A stretch of 64,000 bases of DNA from an uncultured Clostridia bacterium (GTDB lineage Bacteria; Bacillota; Clostridia; Christensenellales; UBA1242). Under the pieces are notes generated by a model. It had not been told where the DNA came from, made no database searches, and was given only the letters and a program-made list of their open reading frames with translations. The position numbers and the translations under genes were made by a program. This document shows, one piece after another, positions 24,344 to 31,902 of this stretch (position 1 is its first letter; the number at the start of each line of letters is the position of its first letter). The stretch lies in the NCBI GenBank assembly GCA_944362705.1, contig CALVTO010000001.1, positions 17,416 to 81,415 on the forward strand, written 5' to 3'.

Positions 24344-24898
24344 ATGTTGGTGTTAATTAGTGGTGTTTCTGGCGCTGGCAAAACAACTTTAATTCGGCAG
24401 GTGTTAAAAAAGCATAAAGATTACGCATATTTACCTTCTTACACTACGCGCAAAAAACGCGCAGGTGAGGTAGATGGTAACCCTTATTATTTTGTGAGTG
24501 AAGAAGAATTTCAAAAAGAACAACAAAAAGGCATGTTTTTAGAATGGTGTGAAGTACATAAAGGTATTTTTTATGGAACGCATAAAAAGGTGTACGAGAC
24601 TTACGCGCAACGCTATCCTGTTCTTATAACGGATATTGATGTTGTTGGAATGCAGGCACTAAAAGGGCAAAAAGAACTAGATTGCGTGACTGTGTTTATA
24701 ACGGTAGAAAATGAACAGCAGTTGCGTGAAAGGTTGATAAAACGTGGAGAAAAACAAATAGAACAGCGCTTAGCACGTGCAAGCTTTGAAATAGAGCATA
24801 TGCATTTATACGATTATGTAATTGTAAATACAAAGATTGATGTTGCGGGTAAAGAATTAGAAGAAATCATAAAAAAAGAATTACAAAGGAGAAAATAA
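24344..24898 (+). CDS. gmk: Guanylate kinase
   Basis: GVSGAGKTTL and SYTTRKKRAGEVDGNPYYFVS. Confidence 0.9.
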   Translation: MLVLISGVSGAGKTTLIRQVLKKHKDYAYLPSYTTRKKRAGEVDGNPYYFVSEEEFQKEQQKGMFLEWCEVHKGIFYGTHKKVYETYAQRYPVLITDIDVVGMQALKGQKELDCVTVFITVENEQQLRERLIKRGEKQIEQRLARASFEIEHMHLYDYVIVNTKIDVAGKELEEIIKKELQRRK

Positions 24899-24899
24899 A

Positions 24900-25304
24900 A
24901 TGGAAAAAACGTATGTTATGTTAAAACCAGATGCTATTCAAAGAAAACTTATAGGACAAATTCTTACGCGTATAGAACGTAAGGGTTTGCAAATTGAAAA
25001 TGTGAAAATGTTTACACTAAATGAAACTATATTAAAAGAACACTATGCGCATTTAAAGGATAAACCTTTTTTCCCTGAAATTGTAGAATATATGACCAGT
25101 GGCCCTGTGGTAGGCATGATTGTTAGCGGTGCGAATGCTGTGGCTGCTATGCGTAAAATTTTGGGCGCAACAAACCCATTAGAAGCCGAAGTTGGTACCA
25201 TTCGTGGGGATTTTGCATTAGAAACGAGATATAATTTGGTGCATGCGTCTGATAGTGTAGAAAACGCACAAATTGAAATAGAGAGATTTTTTGGAACATG
25301 CTAA
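24900..25304 (+). CDS. ndk: Nucleoside-diphosphate kinase
   Basis: YVMLKPDA, GTIRGDFA and NLVHASDS. Confidence 0.9.
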   Translation: MEKTYVMLKPDAIQRKLIGQILTRIERKGLQIENVKMFTLNETILKEHYAHLKDKPFFPEIVEYMTSGPVVGMIVSGANAVAAMRKILGATNPLEAEVGTIRGDFALETRYNLVHASDSVENAQIEIERFFGTC

Positions 25305-26209
25305 CTGATAAATGGCTTGTTATATATAACCCCGATGCAGGCAAAGGGAAAGGGCAAAAAATTGCGCAAACTTTGTCGCGTTTTATGCGTGCCAAAGGAG
25401 CACAAAATATCATTCTTTTTGAAGCCGTTACGCCACAATATGTGAAAGATTATGTAAAAGAAGTTGCTTCATTGCAAGAACCATTTTCATGTTTGGTTAT
25501 AGGTGGAGATGGAACGCTTGGTACGGTGGTAGATGCAGTGGCTTCTGCACATGCATCATGTGCCATTGCTGTGTATCCTGCGGGCACAGCAAACGACTTT
25601 GCAACGAGTTGTAAAGTTCCTAAAAGAAAAAGAGCATTTGTTCGATTTTTAGAGTCTACAACGCCACAAAGCACCGATATTATGTGCGTGAATGGTAAAT
25701 ATATGATTCACGCATTAGGCGTTGGTAATTTTACCAATGGCGCAGTGGTGTATAGCCAACATCTTAAAAAGTGGTTAGGCAAGCTTGGGTATTATGCAAA
25801 GTGTTTAAAAGATGCTTCCACTATGAAAAGTGCATATGTAAGCGTGCATATAGATGATAAAATTTATTCAGGCAATTATTTTTTCTTTTATATTGTCAAC
25901 GCGCCTGTTGCGGGTGGGTTTCGTAAATTTGCACCCGAAGCGCAGGCCAACGATGGGTATTTTGATTTTATAGGATTTAAAGCTTGTAAATTCACCGAAT
26001 TTACCGAAATCTTTTTAAAACTGCTTTCTGGAAAGCATATTCAACATAAAAAAGTGGTATATGTAAAAGGTAAAGTGTTTAATATCTCTACGCAAACCAA
26101 AAACCCTAGATTTCAAGTAAGCGATATAGATGGTAATGTAGGTGCAAGTTTGCCATTGCATGCAGAAGTGGTGCATAAGCCACTAAAAATTTATAGAAAC
26201 ATAAACTAA
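25298..26209 (+). CDS. Diacylglycerol/lipid kinase (YegS/DagK family)
   Basis: NPDAGKGKG and VIGGDGTLGTVVD. Confidence 0.8.
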   Translation: MLTDKWLVIYNPDAGKGKGQKIAQTLSRFMRAKGAQNIILFEAVTPQYVKDYVKEVASLQEPFSCLVIGGDGTLGTVVDAVASAHASCAIAVYPAGTANDFATSCKVPKRKRAFVRFLESTTPQSTDIMCVNGKYMIHALGVGNFTNGAVVYSQHLKKWLGKLGYYAKCLKDASTMKSAYVSVHIDDKIYSGNYFFFYIVNAPVAGGFRKFAPEAQANDGYFDFIGFKACKFTEFTEIFLKLLSGKHIQHKKVVYVKGKVFNISTQTKNPRFQVSDIDGNVGASLPLHAEVVHKPLKIYRNIN

Positions 26210-26229
26210 ACGCCTAAGGGCGTTTTTTT
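26209..26229 (+). terminator. Rho-independent terminator
   Basis: Stem AACGCC/GGCGTT followed by T7. Confidence 0.7.
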
Positions 26230-26462: not shown

Positions 26463-26510
26463 ACACAAGATGTTGTGTGAAACAGCTAATGAAAACACAA
26501 TATCTTGTAT
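26463..26510 (+). promoter_or_regulatory. Tandem NrdR boxes: ACACAAGATGTTGTGT (26463-26478) and ACACAATATCTTGTAT (26495-26510)
   Basis: Each differs at 2 positions from the 16-bp NrdR palindrome acaCwAtATaTwGtgt. The start-to-start spacing is 32 bp. Box 2 overlaps a TATAAT at 26508-26513 upstream of nrdD. Confidence 0.7.
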
Positions 26511-26615: not shown

Positions 26616-28988
26616 ATGTTAACAAAAATTATTAAACGAGATGGAAGAATTGTAGATTACGATATCTCAAAAATTGAAAATGCAATATGCAAAGCTATGA
26701 TGAGTTTAGGCGATGGTGAAATTAAAGATTGCAAAAAATTGGCAAAACTAACGGAGTTGGAATTGTTAGACAATTTTGACAATAAATTGCCATCGGTTGA
26801 AGATATTCAAGATATTGTAGAAAAAGTTTTAATGCGTAATGGCCAAGAAAGTGTTGCAAAGTCATATATTTTATACAGAAAAAGCCATGAAAAAATAAGA
26901 AACATTTCTAACACGTTAATGGATTACAAAAATACCATGGATAAATACCTAAAACTTGCCGATTGGCGTGTTAAAGAAAACTCTACGGTTACGTATTCTG
27001 TGGGTGGGTTAATTCTTTCTAACTCTGGCGCAATGACAGCTAATTACTGGCTAAGCGAAGTGTATGACCAAGAAATTGCTAATGCTCATAAAAACGCAGA
27101 TATTCACATTCACGACCTTTCTATGTTAACAGGGTATTGTGCGGGTTGGTCTTTAAAACAACTGATTCGTGAAGGGTTAGGTGGTGTGCCTGGTAAAATT
27201 AGTTCATCTCCGGCTTCACACCTTTCTACGCTTTGCAACCAAATGGTAAACTTTTTGGGTATTATGCAAAACGAATGGGCAGGGGCACAAGCGTTTTCTT
27301 CGTTTGATACGTACTTAGCTCCGTTTGTTAAGGTAGATAACCTTGATTACAAACAAGTAAAACAATGTATTCAATCGTTTGTATACGGTGTAAATACGCC
27401 AAGCCGTTGGGGTACACAGGCTCCATTTACCAACATTACACTAGATTGGGTTGTGCCTAACGATTTAGCAGAACTTCCTGCGATTGTTGGTGGCAAAGAC
27501 ATGGACTTTAAATATAAAGATTGCAAAAAAGAAATGGATATGATTAACAAAGCCTTTATTGAAATTATGATTGAAGGCGATGCAAATGGTCGCGGTTTCC
27601 AATATCCAATTCCTACATATTCCATTACACGTGATTTTGACTGGTCGGATACAGAAAATAACCGCTTGTTGTTTGAAATGACCACGAAATATGGTACGCC
27701 ATATTTTTCAAACTATATTAACAGCGATATGGAACCAAGTGATGTTCGCAGTATGTGTTGCCGTTTACGTTTAGACTTGCGTGAACTTCGTAAAAAGAGT
27801 GGCGGTTTCTTTGGTAGCGGTGAAAGCACGGGATCTGTGGGTGTAGTTACCATTAACATGCCAAGAATTGCTTACCTTTCTAAATCGGAAGAAGAATTTT
27901 TTAATCGTTTAGATAAAATGATGGATATTTCTGCACGTTCTTTAAAAATGAAACGTGAAACAATTACAACATTGTTAGAAAACGGGTTATACCCTTACAC
28001 AAAACGTTATTTGGGTACTTTTAACAACCATTTTTCTACCATTGGTTTGGTCGGTATGAACGAAGCTTGCTTAAATGCAAACTGGTTAAGGGAAGACTTA
28101 ACACATGAAAGTGCACAAAAATTTACACAAAAAGTTTTAAATCACATGCGTGAAAAACTATCTGATTACCAAGAGATGTACGGCGATTTATATAACCTAG
28201 AAGCAACGCCTGCGGAATCTACATCGTATAGGTTAGCAAAACATGATAAAGAAAGATACCCAGATATTATTACGGCTAACGAAGGTAAAACTCCATATTA
28301 CACCAACAGTTCACACTTACCAGTAGGCTACACAGCAGATATTTTTGAAGCGTTAGATATTCAAGATGAATTACAAACGTTATATACATCTGGTACGGTT
28401 TTCCATGCTTTCTTAGGTCAAAGCCTAGAAGATTGGAAAGCTACAGCGAACTTGGTTCGCACCATTGCTGAAAACTACAAGCTTCCATATTACACAATGT
28501 CGCCAACGTATTCTATTTGTAAAAACCATGGATATTTACTTGGAGAACAACATATTTGTCCTATTTGTGGTGAAAAAACTGAAGTGTATAGCCGAATTAC
28601 GGGGTATTATCGTCCGGTTCAAAACTGGAATGATGGTAAAACGCAAGAATTTGCAGATAGAAAAGTGTACGATATTAAAAATTCCGTTTTAAAACACAAA
28701 GCTTGTGCATGTGGTGAAAAACAAGCAACGGTAACAGGTAAAGTAGCCAAAGAATCTAAAACGCCTATTCTATTTACAACAAAAACTTGCCCTAACTGCA
28801 AAATGGCAAAAATGATATTAAATAATGCGAAAGTTGTATATGAAATGATTGATGCAGAAGATGAAAAAGAAAAAACCGTAGCGTATGGCGTTAAAAAAGC
28901 ACCAACGTTATTGGTACCAAATGGCAATGGGTATGACGTATACGACAATGCTAGCGAAATTAAACGTTATGTAGAAGGTTTAAAATAA
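26616..28988 (+). CDS. nrdD: Anaerobic (class III) ribonucleoside-triphosphate reductase with an N-terminal ATP-cone and a fused C-terminal thioredoxin-fold domain
   Basis: ATP-cone KIIKRDGRIVDYD. The Zn ribbon is CKNHG...CPICG. The glycyl-radical motif is SRITGYYRPV, with Gly at 28602-28604. About 115 further residues include TKTCPNCKMAK. Confidence 0.9.
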   Translation: MLTKIIKRDGRIVDYDISKIENAICKAMMSLGDGEIKDCKKLAKLTELELLDNFDNKLPSVEDIQDIVEKVLMRNGQESVAKSYILYRKSHEKIRNISNTLMDYKNTMDKYLKLADWRVKENSTVTYSVGGLILSNSGAMTANYWLSEVYDQEIANAHKNADIHIHDLSMLTGYCAGWSLKQLIREGLGGVPGKISSSPASHLSTLCNQMVNFLGIMQNEWAGAQAFSSFDTYLAPFVKVDNLDYKQVKQCIQSFVYGVNTPSRWGTQAPFTNITLDWVVPNDLAELPAIVGGKDMDFKYKDCKKEMDMINKAFIEIMIEGDANGRGFQYPIPTYSITRDFDWSDTENNRLLFEMTTKYGTPYFSNYINSDMEPSDVRSMCCRLRLDLRELRKKSGGFFGSGESTGSVGVVTINMPRIAYLSKSEEEFFNRLDKMMDISARSLKMKRETITTLLENGLYPYTKRYLGTFNNHFSTIGLVGMNEACLNANWLREDLTHESAQKFTQKVLNHMREKLSDYQEMYGDLYNLEATPAESTSYRLAKHDKERYPDIITANEGKTPYYTNSSHLPVGYTADIFEALDIQDELQTLYTSGTVFHAFLGQSLEDWKATANLVRTIAENYKLPYYTMSPTYSICKNHGYLLGEQHICPICGEKTEVYSRITGYYRPVQNWNDGKTQEFADRKVYDIKNSVLKHKACACGEKQATVTGKVAKESKTPILFTTKTCPNCKMAKMILNNAKVVYEMIDAEDEKEKTVAYGVKKAPTLLVPNGNGYDVYDNASEIKRYVEGLK
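28758..28985 (+). other. Thioredoxin/glutaredoxin-like (NrdH-like) domain fused to the NrdD C-terminus, CPNC active site at 28788-28799
   Basis: PILFTTKTCPNCKMAK...KKAPTLLV shows the beta-alpha-beta layout, a CxxC motif and a cis-Pro position typical of the Trx fold. Confidence 0.7.
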
Positions 28989-29896
28989 TGACAGATATTA
29001 TTGTTATTGGTGCGGGCGCCTCAGGAATGACTGCGGCGCTCTATGCACTAAGAAATGGCAAAAGCGTGCTTTTAATTGAAGGTAATGGTATTGGCGGGCA
29101 AATTGCACAATCGCCAAGGGTAGAGAATTTTCCTACCATTACCAAAATTTCTGGAAACGAACTTGCAGACAAGTTGTTCGAACAAATATCTGCAAAAGGC
29201 GTACAGTTTGAATTTGGCACAGTGCAAAACATACAAAAAAAAGGTGATACATTTGAGGTAACAACCGATTTTGATACCTACACAGCTAAAAGCGTAATTA
29301 TTGCCGCAGGGGTTCAACATCGTAAACTTCATTTACCAAAAGAAGAACAATTCATTGGGCATGGTATAAGTTACTGTGCACTATGTGATGGCGCTTTTTA
29401 TAAAGGGGAAGAAGTTGTTTTAATTGGCGATGGTAACACGGCATTGCAGTATGCGCTTTTACTTGCCAACGATTGCAAAAAGGTACATGTTGTGATTATG
29501 TTTGATACATTTTTTGGCGATCAAGCGCTTGTAGATGCTTTGGAAAAAACGCCAAATATAACAGTTACTAAACAAAGCAAACTCATTGCCTTAGAAGGAG
29601 AAGACTCTTTAACAGGTGTAACCTTTGAAAAACAAAATGGCGAAACATTTACCATAAAAACCAATGGTTTATTTGTGGCAATTGGGCAAGTACCTAAAAA
29701 CGAAATATTTGCCCACCTTGTGGATTTATCGAAAGAAGGGTACATTGTAGCTGACGAAACGTGTGAAACAAAAACAAAAGGGTTGTTTGTGTGTGGCGAT
29801 TGCCGTACAAAGCAAGTGCGTCAGTTAACAACAGCCTGTGGTGATGGTGCTATTGCTGGAACAAAAGCAAGCACGTATTGTTCAACATTACAGTAA
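28988..29896 (+). CDS. trxB: Low-Mr thioredoxin-reductase-like flavoprotein; the NADPH HRR motif is not evident
   Basis: GAGASGMTAALYA (FAD binding), redox CALCDG and GDGNTALQYAL. Where classical TrxR has HRRDxFRA, this protein reads VIMFDTFFGD. Its ATG overlaps the last base of the nrdD stop codon. Confidence 0.8.
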   Translation: MTDIIVIGAGASGMTAALYALRNGKSVLLIEGNGIGGQIAQSPRVENFPTITKISGNELADKLFEQISAKGVQFEFGTVQNIQKKGDTFEVTTDFDTYTAKSVIIAAGVQHRKLHLPKEEQFIGHGISYCALCDGAFYKGEEVVLIGDGNTALQYALLLANDCKKVHVVIMFDTFFGDQALVDALEKTPNITVTKQSKLIALEGEDSLTGVTFEKQNGETFTIKTNGLFVAIGQVPKNEIFAHLVDLSKEGYIVADETCETKTKGLFVCGDCRTKQVRQLTTACGDGAIAGTKASTYCSTLQ

Positions 29897-29928
29897 AAAA
29901 AGATGATGGTATACCATCATCTTTTTTT
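29895..29928. terminator. Bidirectional rho-independent terminator
   Basis: Palindrome AGATGATGGTA/TACCATCATCT flanked by A7 and T7. Confidence 0.85.
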
Positions 29929-29968
29929 ATTAATTTTTGTTTAAAACTAAAAAAATCAAAATATAGTT

Positions 29969-30511
29969 TTATAAATATTTGATAATATCTTCAAAAGATG
30001 TATAACCTGCACTGGCGTTAAAATGACCTGCTTTGTCGTACACAACTTCTTGTGCTTGAATAGATTTCGCAAAATCTTGTAATGCTTCAAGTTTAATATA
30101 TGGGTCGTTTTTCGAGTAAAAACAAATACGTTCTTTGCATAAATTTTTAAAGTTTGAAACATCTTTTACAAACATTAATTTATTTATATTATCAAATTCA
30201 GGCACGCCGACTTCAAAATTGTTTGCACCGCTAACTGCTATAAGTTTTGCAATTTTAAGGTTGTAAGTTAAGCAATATTTAATAAGAAATATAGGTGCGC
30301 TTGAATGGCAAATAAATACACTTTCTTCCGTTATTTTATCTTTTGCGGTATTTAATACTTTCGACCAATTTTCAAAATTATGACCTTCTGGCGTTGGATA
30401 ATTAAAGTTATATACGTCATATCCTTTTGCTTTTAATAAATCTTCAAGCCAACCAAACCAATTTTCTTTATTATGACCAAATGTGCCATGAATAATAAAA
30501 TAATTTTTCAT
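29969..30511 (-). CDS. Alpha/beta hydrolase (YdeN/RBBP9-like serine hydrolase)
   Basis: IIHGTFGHNKENWFGWL N-terminus and nucleophile-elbow-like ICHSSA. Confidence 0.45.
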   Translation of the reverse strand: MKNYFIIHGTFGHNKENWFGWLEDLLKAKGYDVYNFNYPTPEGHNFENWSKVLNTAKDKITEESVFICHSSAPIFLIKYCLTYNLKIAKLIAVSGANNFEVGVPEFDNINKLMFVKDVSNFKNLCKERICFYSKNDPYIKLEALQDFAKSIQAQEVVYDKAGHFNASAGYTSFEDIIKYL

Positions 30512-30589: not shown

Positions 30590-31276
30590 CTAATACCCAC
30601 GTAAATATACGTTTGTAACAAATTGTTTTAATATTTGCTGGTATTGTTCGGCTGTTTGCTTAGATATTTCAGATAATCCTTGTTGCAGGCAACCGCCAAC
30701 ATCTTTAAAATGTTGTAAATATACCACTTGCGCGCCCTTTAGCATTTCACCCATTTCATATATATCTTCTTCTTCGTGATGCCCACCTACAAGCGTGGTG
30801 CGAAATTCGTACGGTATTAAGTTTCTTTTTAGCAAGTTTATAGATGTTTGTATATTCTTGGTGTTTATGTTAGGAACGCCTGTAGTAAAAGCGTAATTTG
30901 TAAATGAGTTTTTAATATCCATTGCTACATAATCTATAAGATGTTCTTTTATTAAAAATTCTAGCATGGCGGGGTTTGTTCCGTTAGTATCGAGTTTTAC
31001 GGCATAACCAAGTTCTTTTATTTTTTTTATAAATTCAGGCAAGTCGGGGTAAATGGTGGGTTCGCCACCAGATACAACAACTGCATTTAATACGGCTTTA
31101 CGTTTTTTTAAAAAAGCAAAAATTTCTTCTTGTGCTATTTCTGGCTCATCGCCCATAACAATGCTTGCATTATGGCAAAACGGGCAACGAAAATTACAAC
31201 CGCCTGTAAAAATAATGCAAGCAGTTTTTTCTGGGTAATCAACCAAAGTTAATTTATCTAATCCTACAATTTTCAT
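30590..31276 (-). CDS. nrdG: Anaerobic ribonucleotide reductase activating radical SAM protein
   Basis: IFTGGCNFRCPFCHN and VVSGGEPT. Its size and its neighbourhood with nrdD fit. Confidence 0.85.
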   Translation of the reverse strand: MKIVGLDKLTLVDYPEKTACIIFTGGCNFRCPFCHNASIVMGDEPEIAQEEIFAFLKKRKAVLNAVVVSGGEPTIYPDLPEFIKKIKELGYAVKLDTNGTNPAMLEFLIKEHLIDYVAMDIKNSFTNYAFTTGVPNINTKNIQTSINLLKRNLIPYEFRTTLVGGHHEEEDIYEMGEMLKGAQVVYLQHFKDVGGCLQQGLSEISKQTAEQYQQILKQFVTNVYLRGY

Positions 31277-31386
31277 AATTTTATTGTACTTTTTTTACAA
31301 GGAAATGTCAATGAATGTGCACTTTTGGTTTGTTTTCTATGGTAATTGTGTTACTATATACAAAAGAAATAGAAGGTGGTAGAAAT

Positions 31387-31902
31387 ATGCAGGCAATTGC
31401 AACGTTTGAAAAAGTATCTTTTACGCAATTTAAAAAAGATTGGGTGCAAACTTTTGGTGCAACAAGCGAGCAAAAGTTAAAAGAAATTTACGAAGCAATT
31501 TTATTACCTAAGCGCGCGACGAAAAGTTCTGCAGGTTACGACATTTTTGCACCAATTTCTTTTGTGTTAAACCCACAAAAAGAAATTTTTCTTCCAACAG
31601 GTATTCGTTGCCATATGGATGAAGGTTGGACCATGTTATTGTTTAGCCGTAGTGGGTTAGGTACGAAATTTTATGTGCGTTTAGCTACGTGCGTGTCTGT
31701 TATTGATGGCGATTATTATTATGCGAACAACGAAGGGCATATATTTATAAAAGTGCGCAATGAAAGCACGCAAAATGTACCTGTAGAAATATCTGCTGGT
31801 AGCGGTTTTGCGCAAGGCGTGTTTGTGCCTTTTGGCGTTACAACTAACGATACGGCAGACGGCGAACGTGTAGGAGGTTTTGGAAGCACAACCAAAGCCT
31901 AA
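31387..31902 (+). CDS. dut: dUTP diphosphatase
   Basis: RBS GAAGGTGG. Motifs RATKSSAGYDIFAP, VIDGDY and GGFGSTT. Confidence 0.8.
   Translation: MQAIATFEKVSFTQFKKDWVQTFGATSEQKLKEIYEAILLPKRATKSSAGYDIFAPISFVLNPQKEIFLPTGIRCHMDEGWTMLLFSRSGLGTKFYVRLATCVSVIDGDYYYANNEGHIFIKVRNESTQNVPVEISAGSGFAQGVFVPFGVTTNDTADGERVGGFGSTTKA

What the first reader, a model, noticed from the sequence alone, without database searches (positions are those of the whole stretch)
26616..29896. Class III RNR fused to a thioredoxin-fold domain and followed by a TrxR-like flavoprotein lacking the NADPH motif
NrdD normally ends shortly after the glycyl-radical motif, here SRITGYYRPV. This protein continues for about 115 aa into a clear Trx/Grx fold (ILFTTKTCPNCKMAK...APTLLV). 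The finger-loop region carries adjacent cysteines (SMCCRLRL). The next gene starts on the last base of the nrdD stop codon and encodes a low-Mr TrxR-like enzyme (CALCDG). At the position where classical TrxR binds the NADPH 2'-phosphate (HRRDxFRA), it reads IMFDTFFGD, as reported for ferredoxin/flavodoxin-dependent TrxR-like enzymes of clostridia. Together these suggest a self-contained, thiol-based electron path to the RNR (ferredoxin, then the reductase, then the fused Trx domain, then NrdD) rather than formate. Thioredoxin-dependent NrdD subclasses are known. I am not aware that this covalent fusion plus a dedicated non-NADPH reductase has been characterised.
Basis: partly seen in the sequence, partly recalled or inferred. 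Interest (0 to 1): 0.55.

Follow-up and report, generated by a model that had tools for sequence, protein, structure and literature searches.

The report
Anaerobic RNR with tethered redoxin, odd reductase
This small-genome gut bacterium makes DNA building blocks with an oxygen-sensitive ribonucleotide reductase that carries its own thioredoxin-like domain, and the next gene encodes a reductase whose NADPH site is replaced by a different, conserved set of residues; the module is common in gut anaerobes but has never been tested at the bench.

Summary
Window 26616-28988 encodes a 790-aa class III RNR: ATP-cone, NrdD core, a roughly 30-aa low-confidence linker, then a 73-aa CPNC thioredoxin-fold domain. 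The next gene (28988-29896) overlaps the stop codon (TAATG) and encodes a TrxR-like flavoprotein with FAD and CALC motifs. Its NADPH motifs read GDGNTALQY and IMFDTFFGD instead of GGGxxAxE and HRRDxxRA.

Two NrdR boxes and two terminators frame the pair as one operon. The fusion occurs in at least 596 species. About 65 of 77 sampled loci have a TrxR-like gene directly downstream.

These reductases fall into three donor-site types. The window's type (T[LM]FD[KR]FFGD) is a well-supported clade. It lies within the NADPH-type low-Mr TrxRs, not among clostridial FFTR/TRi enzymes.

NrdD has the double-cysteine loop and the glutamate of thiol-dependent enzymes. It also keeps the methionine of formate-dependent ones, and the genome encodes PFL. 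A thiol path is therefore well supported, but excluding formate is not.

The reductase's electron donor is unresolved. The genome has ferredoxin and PFOR, no flavodoxin, no detectable NAD kinase and no canonical TrxR.

This scan has already noted the same module in at least 87 other genomes. The literature I could search lists one such fusion, in a table.

The parts
26463..26510 (+). Two NrdR-box palindromes (26463-26478 and 26495-26510), 32 bp apart, upstream of nrdD
   Evidence: Both match ACACWANATNTTGTRT with 0 mismatches, and they are the only 0-mismatch sites in the window. An NrdR gene is present in the genome at 189 bits (cut-off 125).
26616..28988 (+). nrdD fusion gene (790 aa): ATP-cone, class III RNR core, linker, redoxin domain
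   Evidence: NF006126 scores 1146 bits over aa 2-687.
26625..26891 (+). ATP-cone (aa 4-92)
   Evidence: PF03477, 85 bits
27138..27140 (+). Cys175, the conserved beta-A cysteine
   Evidence: Aligned to T. maritima Cys125 in the alignment to 4COI (residue role from PMC4493059)
27753..27764 (+). Finger-loop motif M380-C381-C382-R383 (double cysteine with the methionine kept)
   Evidence: MCCR is present in all 121 close homologues. Classification follows PMC9669993.
28200..28202 (+). Glu529 (NLEATPAE), the subclass-specific active-site glutamate
   Evidence: Aligned to NIEQVPAE of T. maritima NrdD and to YSILATPAE (Leu) of the single-cysteine P. copri NrdD 8P23. Invariant in 32 fusions.
28590..28610 (+). 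Glycyl-radical motif SRITGYY (Gly663)
28677..28766 (+). Linker (aa 688-717) holding C697-A-C699
   Evidence: pLDDT is below 50 at aa 695-711 in the full-length model and in the first 12 residues of the domain model.
28767..28985 (+). Minimal thioredoxin-fold domain (aa 718-790) with C725-P-N-C728 and cis-Pro P763
   Evidence: PF00462 match. The AF2 model has pLDDT 84 and topology beta-alpha-beta-alpha-beta-beta-alpha. The best Foldseek matches are thioredoxins at TM about 0.65. C25, P26, C28 and P63 are invariant in alignment A1.
28988..29896 (+). TrxR-like flavoprotein disulfide reductase (302 aa), 'type A' donor site
29375..29386 (+). Redox-active C130-A-L-C133
   Evidence: CALCDG is present in all 120 close homologues.
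29426..29452 (+). Altered pyrophosphate-binding motif GDGNTALQY (aa 147-155), in place of GGGxxAxE
29495..29521 (+). Altered 2'-phosphate site IMFDTFFGD (aa 170-178), in place of HRRDxxRA; family consensus T[LM]FD[KR]FFGD
29892..29931 (+). Terminator-like hairpin ending the two-gene operon; the preceding gene ends with another at 26208-26225
30590..31276 (-). nrdG (NrdD activase, radical SAM), convergent with the operon
   Evidence: TIGR02495 NrdG2, 208 bits against a cut-off of 131

Best explanation
This is an NrdR-controlled two-gene operon that gives the cell's only ribonucleotide reductase its own disulfide-reducing chain.

Proposed electron path:
1. NrdD is activated by NrdG to a glycyl radical at Gly663. 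During turnover it oxidises a cysteine pair (Cys175 with Cys381 or Cys382, assisted by Glu529), as in thioredoxin-dependent class III enzymes.
2. The resulting disulfide is reduced by the CPNC redoxin domain, which is tethered by a flexible linker of about 30 aa. The linker cysteines C697/C699 may act as a relay.
3. The oxidised redoxin domain is recycled by the co-translated TrxR-like flavoprotein through FAD and C130/C133.
4. That reductase does not use NADPH. Its pyridine-nucleotide pocket has been rebuilt into a conserved hydrophobic/aromatic site (D148, Y155, T/I170, L/M171, F172, F176).

The reductase's own electron donor is unknown. Reduced ferredoxin (from PFOR or Rnf) is my first guess and NADH my second.

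Shown here: the architecture, its conservation, the gene pairing, the operon frame and the motif replacement. Inferred: every electron-transfer step.
For: Architecture and motifs.

Operon frame: NrdR boxes, the nrdR gene, flanking terminators and the TAATG overlap.

Conservation of the fusion:
- At least 596 species carry it.
- All 121 close homologues keep MCCR and CPNC.
- Fused and unfused NrdDs separate on one branch of the core tree (99*).

Gene pairing:
- About 65 of 77 loci with room have a TrxR-like gene directly downstream.
- Three of three type-A reductases chosen by the reductase alone sit directly after a fused NrdD.
- In the window's own family, only the 5 genomes with a fused NrdD have the P0002 orthologue, and it is always adjacent.

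The donor site is remodelled, not decayed:
- T[LM]FD[KR]FFGD and GD[GA]NTALQY are near-invariant in 120 homologues.
- 8 of the 10 positions that separate type A from HRR-type partners lie in the two NAD(P)H motifs.
- Type A is a clade (99*).
- An acidic residue after the first Gly of the pyrophosphate motif also occurs in DvTRi (GEGxxAxN), which NAD(P)H does not reduce (PMC5627308).

Genome context:
- NrdD is the only RNR found.
- The fused domain is the only Grx-family hit.
- The only other TrxR-like enzyme is TRi-type and sits next to the only thioredoxin.
- There is no NAD kinase hit above cut-off.
- A 2x[4Fe-4S] ferredoxin, PFOR and Rnf-like genes are present; flavodoxin is absent.
Against: No step has been tested biochemically in any member.

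The finger loop keeps Met380, and the genome has PFL, so formate could still be a reductant or the main one.

No ferredoxin, rubredoxin or flavodoxin gene is consistently linked to type-A loci (2, 1 and 0 of 42).

The window's own site keeps GxGxxA (GDGNTA), so a pyridine nucleotide such as NADH is not excluded.

About 18 of 30 type-A genomes do have NAD kinase. Lack of NADP therefore cannot be the general reason for this site.

The linker cysteines are not universal among fusions: 29 of 80 species loci have none.

Twelve of 77 fusions have no adjacent reductase.
Confidence: 0.62

Rival explanations
1. Same chain, but the reductase is NADH-dependent. On this reading the rebuilt pocket only removes the 2'-phosphate site and keeps a dinucleotide fold.
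For: GxGxxA is retained in the window's protein and in 98 of 120 close homologues (GDGNTA). NADH-preferring low-Mr TrxRs are known (T. maritima TR and DvTR3, cited in PMC5627308). A fermenter without NAD kinase has NADH to hand.
Against: There is no acidic residue at the end of beta-2, where NADH-specific enzymes bind the ribose; the position is I/T170. Most diverse type-A members have GDANTA, with the second glycine lost. A strictly conserved Asp follows the first Gly, as in the NAD(P)H-inert DvTRi (GEG). Known NADH-using TR3 enzymes keep GGGxxAxE (PMC5627308). The separate type-C partners (GGGNSALQE...Q[DN]L) look more like an NADH form.
Confidence: 0.22
2. Formate remains the stoichiometric reductant of this NrdD. 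On this reading the tethered redoxin and its reductase serve maintenance. They would keep the active-site or zinc-site cysteines reduced, or rescue the enzyme after oxidative disulfide formation.
For: Met380 is kept (MCCR). PMC9669993 notes that such enzymes hold the components for either reductant. PFL is present. [quoted passage not shown] Unfused relatives at about 50% identity have the same MCCR and Glu pattern without a tethered redoxin.
Against: A dedicated reductase under NrdR control, translationally coupled to nrdD in hundreds of species, is more than a repair role usually gets. Glu529 and the second cysteine are the features tied to formate-independent turnover (PMC9669993, PMC4390871).
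Confidence: 0.15
3. The reductase is a member of the clostridial ferredoxin-dependent flavin TrxR family (FFTR/TRi).
For: It lacks HRRxxxR, as FFTRs do (PMC10880999).
Against: It scores 200 bits against NADPH-type TrxRs, 124 against CaFFTR 6GNA and 93 against DvTRi 5NII. Its motifs are unlike either. The genome's true TRi-type enzyme sits on a very long separate branch.
Confidence: 0.04

Closest known systems
Thioredoxin-dependent class III RNR (NrdD2): Neisseria bacilliformis NrdD with TrxA/TrxB/NADPH, and T. maritima NrdD (Wei et al. 2014, as described in PMC9669993, PMC4390871 and PMC4493059)
   Same: Double-cysteine finger loop, active-site glutamate, conserved beta-A cysteine, and a protein dithiol as reductant.
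   Different: Here the loop is MCCR, not SCCR. The redoxin is covalently fused. The reductase is a dedicated operon partner without an NADPH site. The host also has PFL.
Methanosarcina barkeri NrdD3 with an NrdH-like redoxin and ferredoxin:disulfide reductase (Wei et al. 2015; recalled from my own knowledge and named in earlier scan notes, paper not read here)
   Same: A dedicated small redoxin plus a dedicated non-NADPH reductase supplying a class III RNR.
   Different: In NrdD3 the reductase is an iron-sulfur FTR-type enzyme, not a flavoprotein. NrdD3 lacks both Met and Glu (QCCR/A). The redoxin is a separate protein.
Facklamia ignava Grx::ATP-cone::NrdB fusion (PMC6187632)
   Same: A glutaredoxin-like domain fused to an RNR subunit, shown there to act as the RNR reductant.
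   Different: That case is a class I enzyme with an N-terminal fusion to the radical-generating subunit. It is glutathione-dependent and has no dedicated reductase.
Glutaredoxin:NrdD of Lachnospiraceae bacterium TWA4, subclass NrdDd (Table S1 of PMC6187632)
   Same: The same kind of fusion, and the only literature record I found.
   Different: It is only listed there, with no analysis of partner genes, spread or function.
Pyridine-nucleotide-independent low-Mr TrxRs: clostridial/cyanobacterial FFTR (6GNA, 5J60) and DvTRi (5NII)
   Same: TrxR fold with FAD and CxxC but without the NADPH motifs. Type A shares with DvTRi an acidic residue after the first Gly of the pyrophosphate motif.
   Different: Type A is a separate lineage with different replacement motifs. 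Its substrate is a tethered domain of one enzyme rather than free thioredoxin. Its donor is unknown.

Membership tests
Class III RNR catalytic subunit (NrdD) | Match to curated NrdD models over full length | tested here: met
   NF006126 1146 bits (cut-off 548); TIGR02487 525 bits (cut-off 326); PF13597 643 bits
Class III RNR catalytic subunit (NrdD) | C-terminal glycyl-radical motif, and an NrdG activase in the genome | tested here: met
   SRITGYY with Gly663; nrdG at 30590-31276, TIGR02495 208 bits
NrdD2 (thioredoxin-only class III RNR, N. bacilliformis / T. maritima type) | Two adjacent cysteines in the finger loop | tested here: met
   C381-C382
NrdD2 (thioredoxin-only class III RNR, N. bacilliformis / T. 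maritima type) | Active-site glutamate | tested here: met
   E529 aligns with the Glu of NIEQV in TmNrdD and with Leu in the single-cysteine P. copri enzyme
NrdD2 (thioredoxin-only class III RNR, N. bacilliformis / T. maritima type) | [quoted passage not shown] | tested here: not met
   The motif is MCCR, the majority double-cysteine type of PMC9669993, which may use either reductant
NrdD2 (thioredoxin-only class III RNR, N. bacilliformis / T. maritima type) | Turnover with a thioredoxin system and not with formate | not testable with these tools
   Needs an anaerobic enzyme assay
NrdD1 (formate-dependent) | Single-cysteine MGCR loop and no active-site glutamate | tested here: not met
   MCCR and E529 are present
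NrdD3 | QCCR/A loop with neither Met nor Glu | tested here: not met
   M380 and E529 are present
NADPH-dependent low-Mr thioredoxin reductase (TR1 / TIGR01292) | FAD-binding GxGxxG and redox-active CxxC in the second domain | tested here: met
   GAGASG aa 8-13; CALC aa 130-133
NADPH-dependent low-Mr thioredoxin reductase (TR1 / TIGR01292) | GGGxxAxE and VxxxHRRDx[F/L]R NADPH motifs (PMC5627308) | tested here: not met
   The motifs read GDGNTALQY and VHVVIMFDTFFG
NADPH-dependent low-Mr thioredoxin reductase (TR1 / TIGR01292) | Score above the curated equivalog cut-off | tested here: not met
   303 bits against a cut-off of 343
FFTR / TRi (pyridine-nucleotide-independent TrxR) | Absence of the NADPH motifs | tested here: met
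   HRRxxxR is absent and the pyrophosphate motif is altered
FFTR / TRi (pyridine-nucleotide-independent TrxR) | Sequence kinship with characterised FFTR/TRi, and the TQ/NGK-type motif | tested here: not met
   124 and 93 bits against 200 for NADPH-type enzymes; motifs differ; separate clade
FFTR / TRi (pyridine-nucleotide-independent TrxR) | Reduction by ferredoxin | not testable with these tools
   Needs an assay with reduced ferredoxin
Glutaredoxin / NrdH-type redoxin | Thioredoxin fold with a CxxC at the N-terminus of helix 1 and a cis-Pro loop | tested here: met
   PF00462 30.9 bits (cut-off 22.9); AF2 model with Grx-like topology; C725, C728 and P763 conserved
Glutaredoxin / NrdH-type redoxin | Class signature: CPYC with glutathione-binding residues, or CVQC with WSGFRP for NrdH (signatures recalled from my own knowledge) | tested here: not met
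   The motif is CPNC and the tail has no WSGFRP-like motif. All NCBIfam redoxin equivalogs score far below their cut-offs.

The most novel reading that the evidence does not exclude
The type-A reductase would be a third, independently evolved class of pyridine-nucleotide-independent low-Mr TrxR. It would be dedicated to a single substrate, the redoxin domain tethered to NrdD, and charged by ferredoxin or another low-potential carrier. In many gut anaerobes, and obligatorily in small-genome lineages such as this one with no detectable NAD kinase and no canonical TrxR, dNTP synthesis would then draw on the ferredoxin pool rather than on NADPH or formate. Sister lineages would have re-tuned the same partner to NADPH (HRR type) or probably NADH (Q[DN]L type).
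Probability: 0.33. Interest if true: 0.7.

Novelty: new variant of a known kind. Interest (0 to 1): 0.55.

Why it matters
Which reductant the majority 'MCCR' class III RNRs use is an open question raised in PMC9669993: formate, thioredoxin or both. A natural fusion of the enzyme to its presumed reductant, with a dedicated recycling enzyme in the same operon, is the simplest system in which to answer it.

The reductase is a second question in itself. It is a large, conserved clade of TrxR-like flavoproteins in which a precise set of residues replaces the NADPH site, and its electron donor is unknown.

In this organism the stakes are high. NrdD is the only RNR found, and neither of the two TrxR-like enzymes can plausibly use NADPH. 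All DNA precursor synthesis may therefore depend on this chain.

Tried and rejected
Assembly artefact or missed stop codon: rejected.

FFTR/TRi membership of the reductase: rejected on scores, motifs and trees.

'No NADP in the cell' as the general reason for the type-A site: rejected. About 18 of 30 type-A genomes have a clear NAD kinase, although the window's genome has none above cut-off.

A conserved neighbouring ferredoxin, rubredoxin or flavodoxin gene as a clue to the donor: not found.

The linker CxC as a universal shuttle, like the class I/II C-terminal cysteines:
- Only partly holds.
- 40 of 42 type-A loci have at least one linker cysteine.
- 29 of 80 species loci have none.
- 47 of 48 unfused representatives have cysteine-free tails.
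- One unfused relative does end in CGCE.

The representative search at 50% identity was of limited use. More than half of the top 150 hits lacked a recognisable C-terminal glycyl-radical motif, and many were long proteins matched in several stretches.

The order in which types A, B and C and the housekeeping TrxBs branched stayed unresolved. An AU test did not finish in the time allowed.

Wei et al. 2014 (PMC4246965) is not held in the library. NrdD2 criteria were therefore taken from papers that describe it.
Full report
**What is in the sequence**

The window holds an ORF of 790 aa at 26616-28988 and one of 302 aa at 28988-29896 on the plus strand. The second gene's ATG begins on the last base of the first gene's TAA (TAATG).

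Curated models read the first protein as follows:
- ATP-cone, aa 4-92.
- Class III RNR core. NF006126 covers aa 2-687 at 1146 bits.
- A Glutaredoxin match at aa 719-753, with weaker Thioredoxin matches at aa 709-781.

The extension beyond the NrdD model is 103 aa.

An AlphaFold2 model of the last 90 aa, built on 29 homologues, has pLDDT 84. Its topology is beta-alpha-beta-alpha-beta-beta-alpha, and the first 12 residues score below 50. Its best solved neighbours are thioredoxins at TM about 0.65. By sequence the closest solved proteins are small archaeal redoxins, Grx2 and NrdH, all weakly.

In a full-length model, aa 695-711 score below 50 and the domain at aa 718-789 is folded. I read this as a minimal thioredoxin-fold domain (CPNC, cis-Pro P763) on a linker of about 30 aa that looks flexible.

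**Active site of the RNR**

Alignment to solved NrdDs gives these equivalences:
- Cys175 matches T. maritima Cys125, the conserved beta-A cysteine.
- The finger loop reads M380-C381-C382-R383.
- Glu529 (NLEATPAE) matches NIEQVPAE of T. maritima.
- The single-cysteine, MGCR-type Prevotella copri enzyme has Leu at the Glu529 position (YSILATPAE).

Burnim et al. (PMC9669993) place such enzymes in the majority double-cysteine group. [quoted passage not shown] Strict thioredoxin-only enzymes (N. bacilliformis, T. maritima) have SCCR.

The thiol-type determinants are therefore all present, but so is the methionine of the formate type.

**The reductase**

P0002 has the FAD motif (GAGASG) and the redox-active CALC.

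Against the solved NADPH enzyme 7AAW, GGGDSAVEE aligns with GDGNTALQY and HRRDTLRA aligns with IMFDTFFG. It scores 303 bits on TIGR01292, below the 343 cut-off.

In 120 close homologues the replacement is almost invariant: GD[GA]NTALQY and T[LM]FD[KR]FFGD. The window's I170 and T174 are minor departures from that consensus.

I compared 45 such proteins with 9 NrdD-adjacent partners that keep HRR. Ten positions separate the two sets. Eight of them lie in the two NAD(P)H motifs: G148D, S155Y, H170T, R171L, R172F, R176F, E178D and their neighbours. This looks like a rebuilt pocket, not decay.

**Not an FFTR**

P0002 scores 200 bits against NADPH-type TrxRs, 124 against Clostridium acetobutylicum FFTR (6GNA) and 93 against Desulfovibrio TRi (5NII). 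Those enzymes read GYNKEA...VYYVPRYK and GEGVFA...ICTQGK at the same places (PMC5627308).

The genome has a second TrxR-like gene next to its only thioredoxin (WCGPC). That enzyme is TRi-type: it scores 163 bits against 5NII and has the motifs GNAAYA and LTNGQ.

In trees, type A is a clade (99*). Fifteen housekeeping TrxBs from related genomes form another group (86). The TRi-type enzyme lies on a very long branch. The branching order among these groups is unresolved.

One parallel is worth noting. DvTRi, which NAD(P)H does not reduce, has an acidic residue after the first glycine of the pyrophosphate motif (GEG), and type A has GD[GA].

**Operon and regulation**

Two 0-mismatch NrdR boxes lie 32 bp apart at 26463-26510, and nrdR is in the genome. 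Terminator-like hairpins sit at 26208-26225 and 29892-29931. The activase gene nrdG is convergent at 30590-31276.

**Spread and linkage**

They include cultured Extibacter muris and many Christensenellales, Oscillospirales, Lachnospiraceae and Bacilli MAGs.

In the 80 loci kept, about 65 of the 77 with room have a TrxR-like gene directly downstream. These partners fall into three types:
- Type A, 45 loci: the window's kind.
- Type B, 9 loci: canonical GGGDSALQS...HRRDEFRGE.
- Type C, 10 loci: GGGNSALQE...Q[DN]L..TGE, a clade at 99* and plausibly NADH-type.

Going the other way, three type-A reductases picked without reference to NrdD all lie directly after a fused NrdD.

In the window's own family (19 genomes of about 1 Mb), only five have the fused NrdD (66-81% identity to the window's over the matched stretches). 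Each of those five has the P0002 orthologue adjacent. The other family members with an NrdD have an unfused form at about 50% identity with the same MCCR and Glu pattern, and carry a TrxR at 35-41% identity elsewhere.

On an NrdD core tree, fused and unfused forms separate on one branch (99*). The two genes therefore travel as one module.

**Genome context**

The genome is 0.97 Mb in 3 contigs and is scored 100% complete. Whole-genome searches gave the following:

| Feature | Result |
|---|---|
| Other RNRs | none found; NrdD is the only one |
| Grx-family domains | only the fused domain |
| Pyruvate formate-lyase | present |
| PFOR | present |
| 58-aa 2x[4Fe-4S] ferredoxin | present |
| Rnf-like genes | present |
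| Flavodoxin | absent |
| NAD kinase | no hit above cut-off |

The one weak NAD kinase match is a DAGK-family protein.

This cell therefore has two TrxR-like enzymes, and neither is NADPH-type. Lack of NADP is not the general reason for the type-A site, because about 18 of 30 type-A genomes have a clear NAD kinase.

No ferredoxin, rubredoxin or flavodoxin gene is consistently linked to type-A loci.

**Linker cysteines**

The window has C697-A-C699 in the linker. Forty of 42 type-A loci have at least one linker cysteine, and 23 have CxC or CC. Only 9 of 35 other loci have any.

One unfused relative ends in CGCE. However, 47 of 48 unfused representatives have cysteine-free tails.

A relay role like that of the class I/II C-terminal cysteine pair is possible but weakly supported. 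The species are also related, so these counts are not independent.

**Literature**

I found no paper on this module in the library. PMC6187632 lists one Glutaredoxin:NrdD protein (Lachnospiraceae TWA4, NrdDd) in Table S1. PMC4390871 states that no external disulfide or suitable cysteines are known in class III RNRs. Surveys of atypical TrxRs (PMC5627308, PMC10880999) do not link any atypical TrxR to an nrdD gene or describe this motif. Further searches found nothing.

The scan's own notes show that the same module was reported before in at least 87 other genomes. I treated those notes as leads and repeated the tests here.

**Verdict**

The thiol-based, self-contained chain is the best reading. 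The 'ferredoxin, as in clostridial FFTR' and 'rather than formate' parts are unproven. The electron donor of the reductase is the real open question.

Noticed in passing
window 24344-26209 and 31315-31902: The operon sits among nucleotide-metabolism genes. Upstream are guanylate kinase (24344-24898), nucleoside diphosphate kinase (24900-25304) and a DAGK/YegS-type kinase (25298-26209). A dUTPase-family gene (31315-31902) is divergent from nrdG.
   Followed up: partly
whole genome G000 (C3:142557-143495 for the weak hit): No NAD kinase was detected. The only PF01513 hit is sub-threshold and lies in a DAGK_cat protein, and PF20143 finds nothing. With no canonical TrxR either, the organism may lack NADP(H)-dependent thiol reduction altogether.
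   Followed up: partly
L081:468-1310 (-) and L081:160-564 (-), i.e. G000:C3:43659-44809: A second, separate thiol system: a TRi-type (non-NAD(P)H) TrxR-like gene directly upstream of the genome's only WCGPC thioredoxin.
   Followed up: partly
L053, L055, L071, L073, L074, L076-L080 (genes directly after fused nrdD): A third kind of NrdD-linked reductase with GGGNSALQE and Q[DN]L..TGE in place of HRRD..R. It is a well-supported clade and possibly NADH-specific.
   Followed up: partly
P0358, P0365 (representatives): These NrdD proteins continue after the glycyl-radical motif into a radical-SAM CxxxCxxC region (CNLACPWC, CNLKCPWC). They look like NrdD-NrdG fusions.
   Followed up: no
representatives: Many NrdD representatives are 1000-1900 aa long and match the query in 2-4 separated stretches. 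This suggests large insertions, perhaps inteins.
   Followed up: no
L087:2749-4848 (-), genome G016: An unfused NrdD of the same family ends in ...ANCGCE. This C-terminal CxC resembles the linker CxC of the fusions.
   Followed up: partly
window 29969-30511 (-): A small alpha/beta serine-hydrolase gene (PF06821) lies between the reductase gene and nrdG. It has no NCBIfam match.
   Followed up: no
type-A versus B/C/no-reductase loci among L001-L080: Gene order differs by type. In type-A loci nrdG is usually convergent downstream, as in the window. In the other loci nrdG lies upstream of nrdD on the same strand.
   Followed up: no
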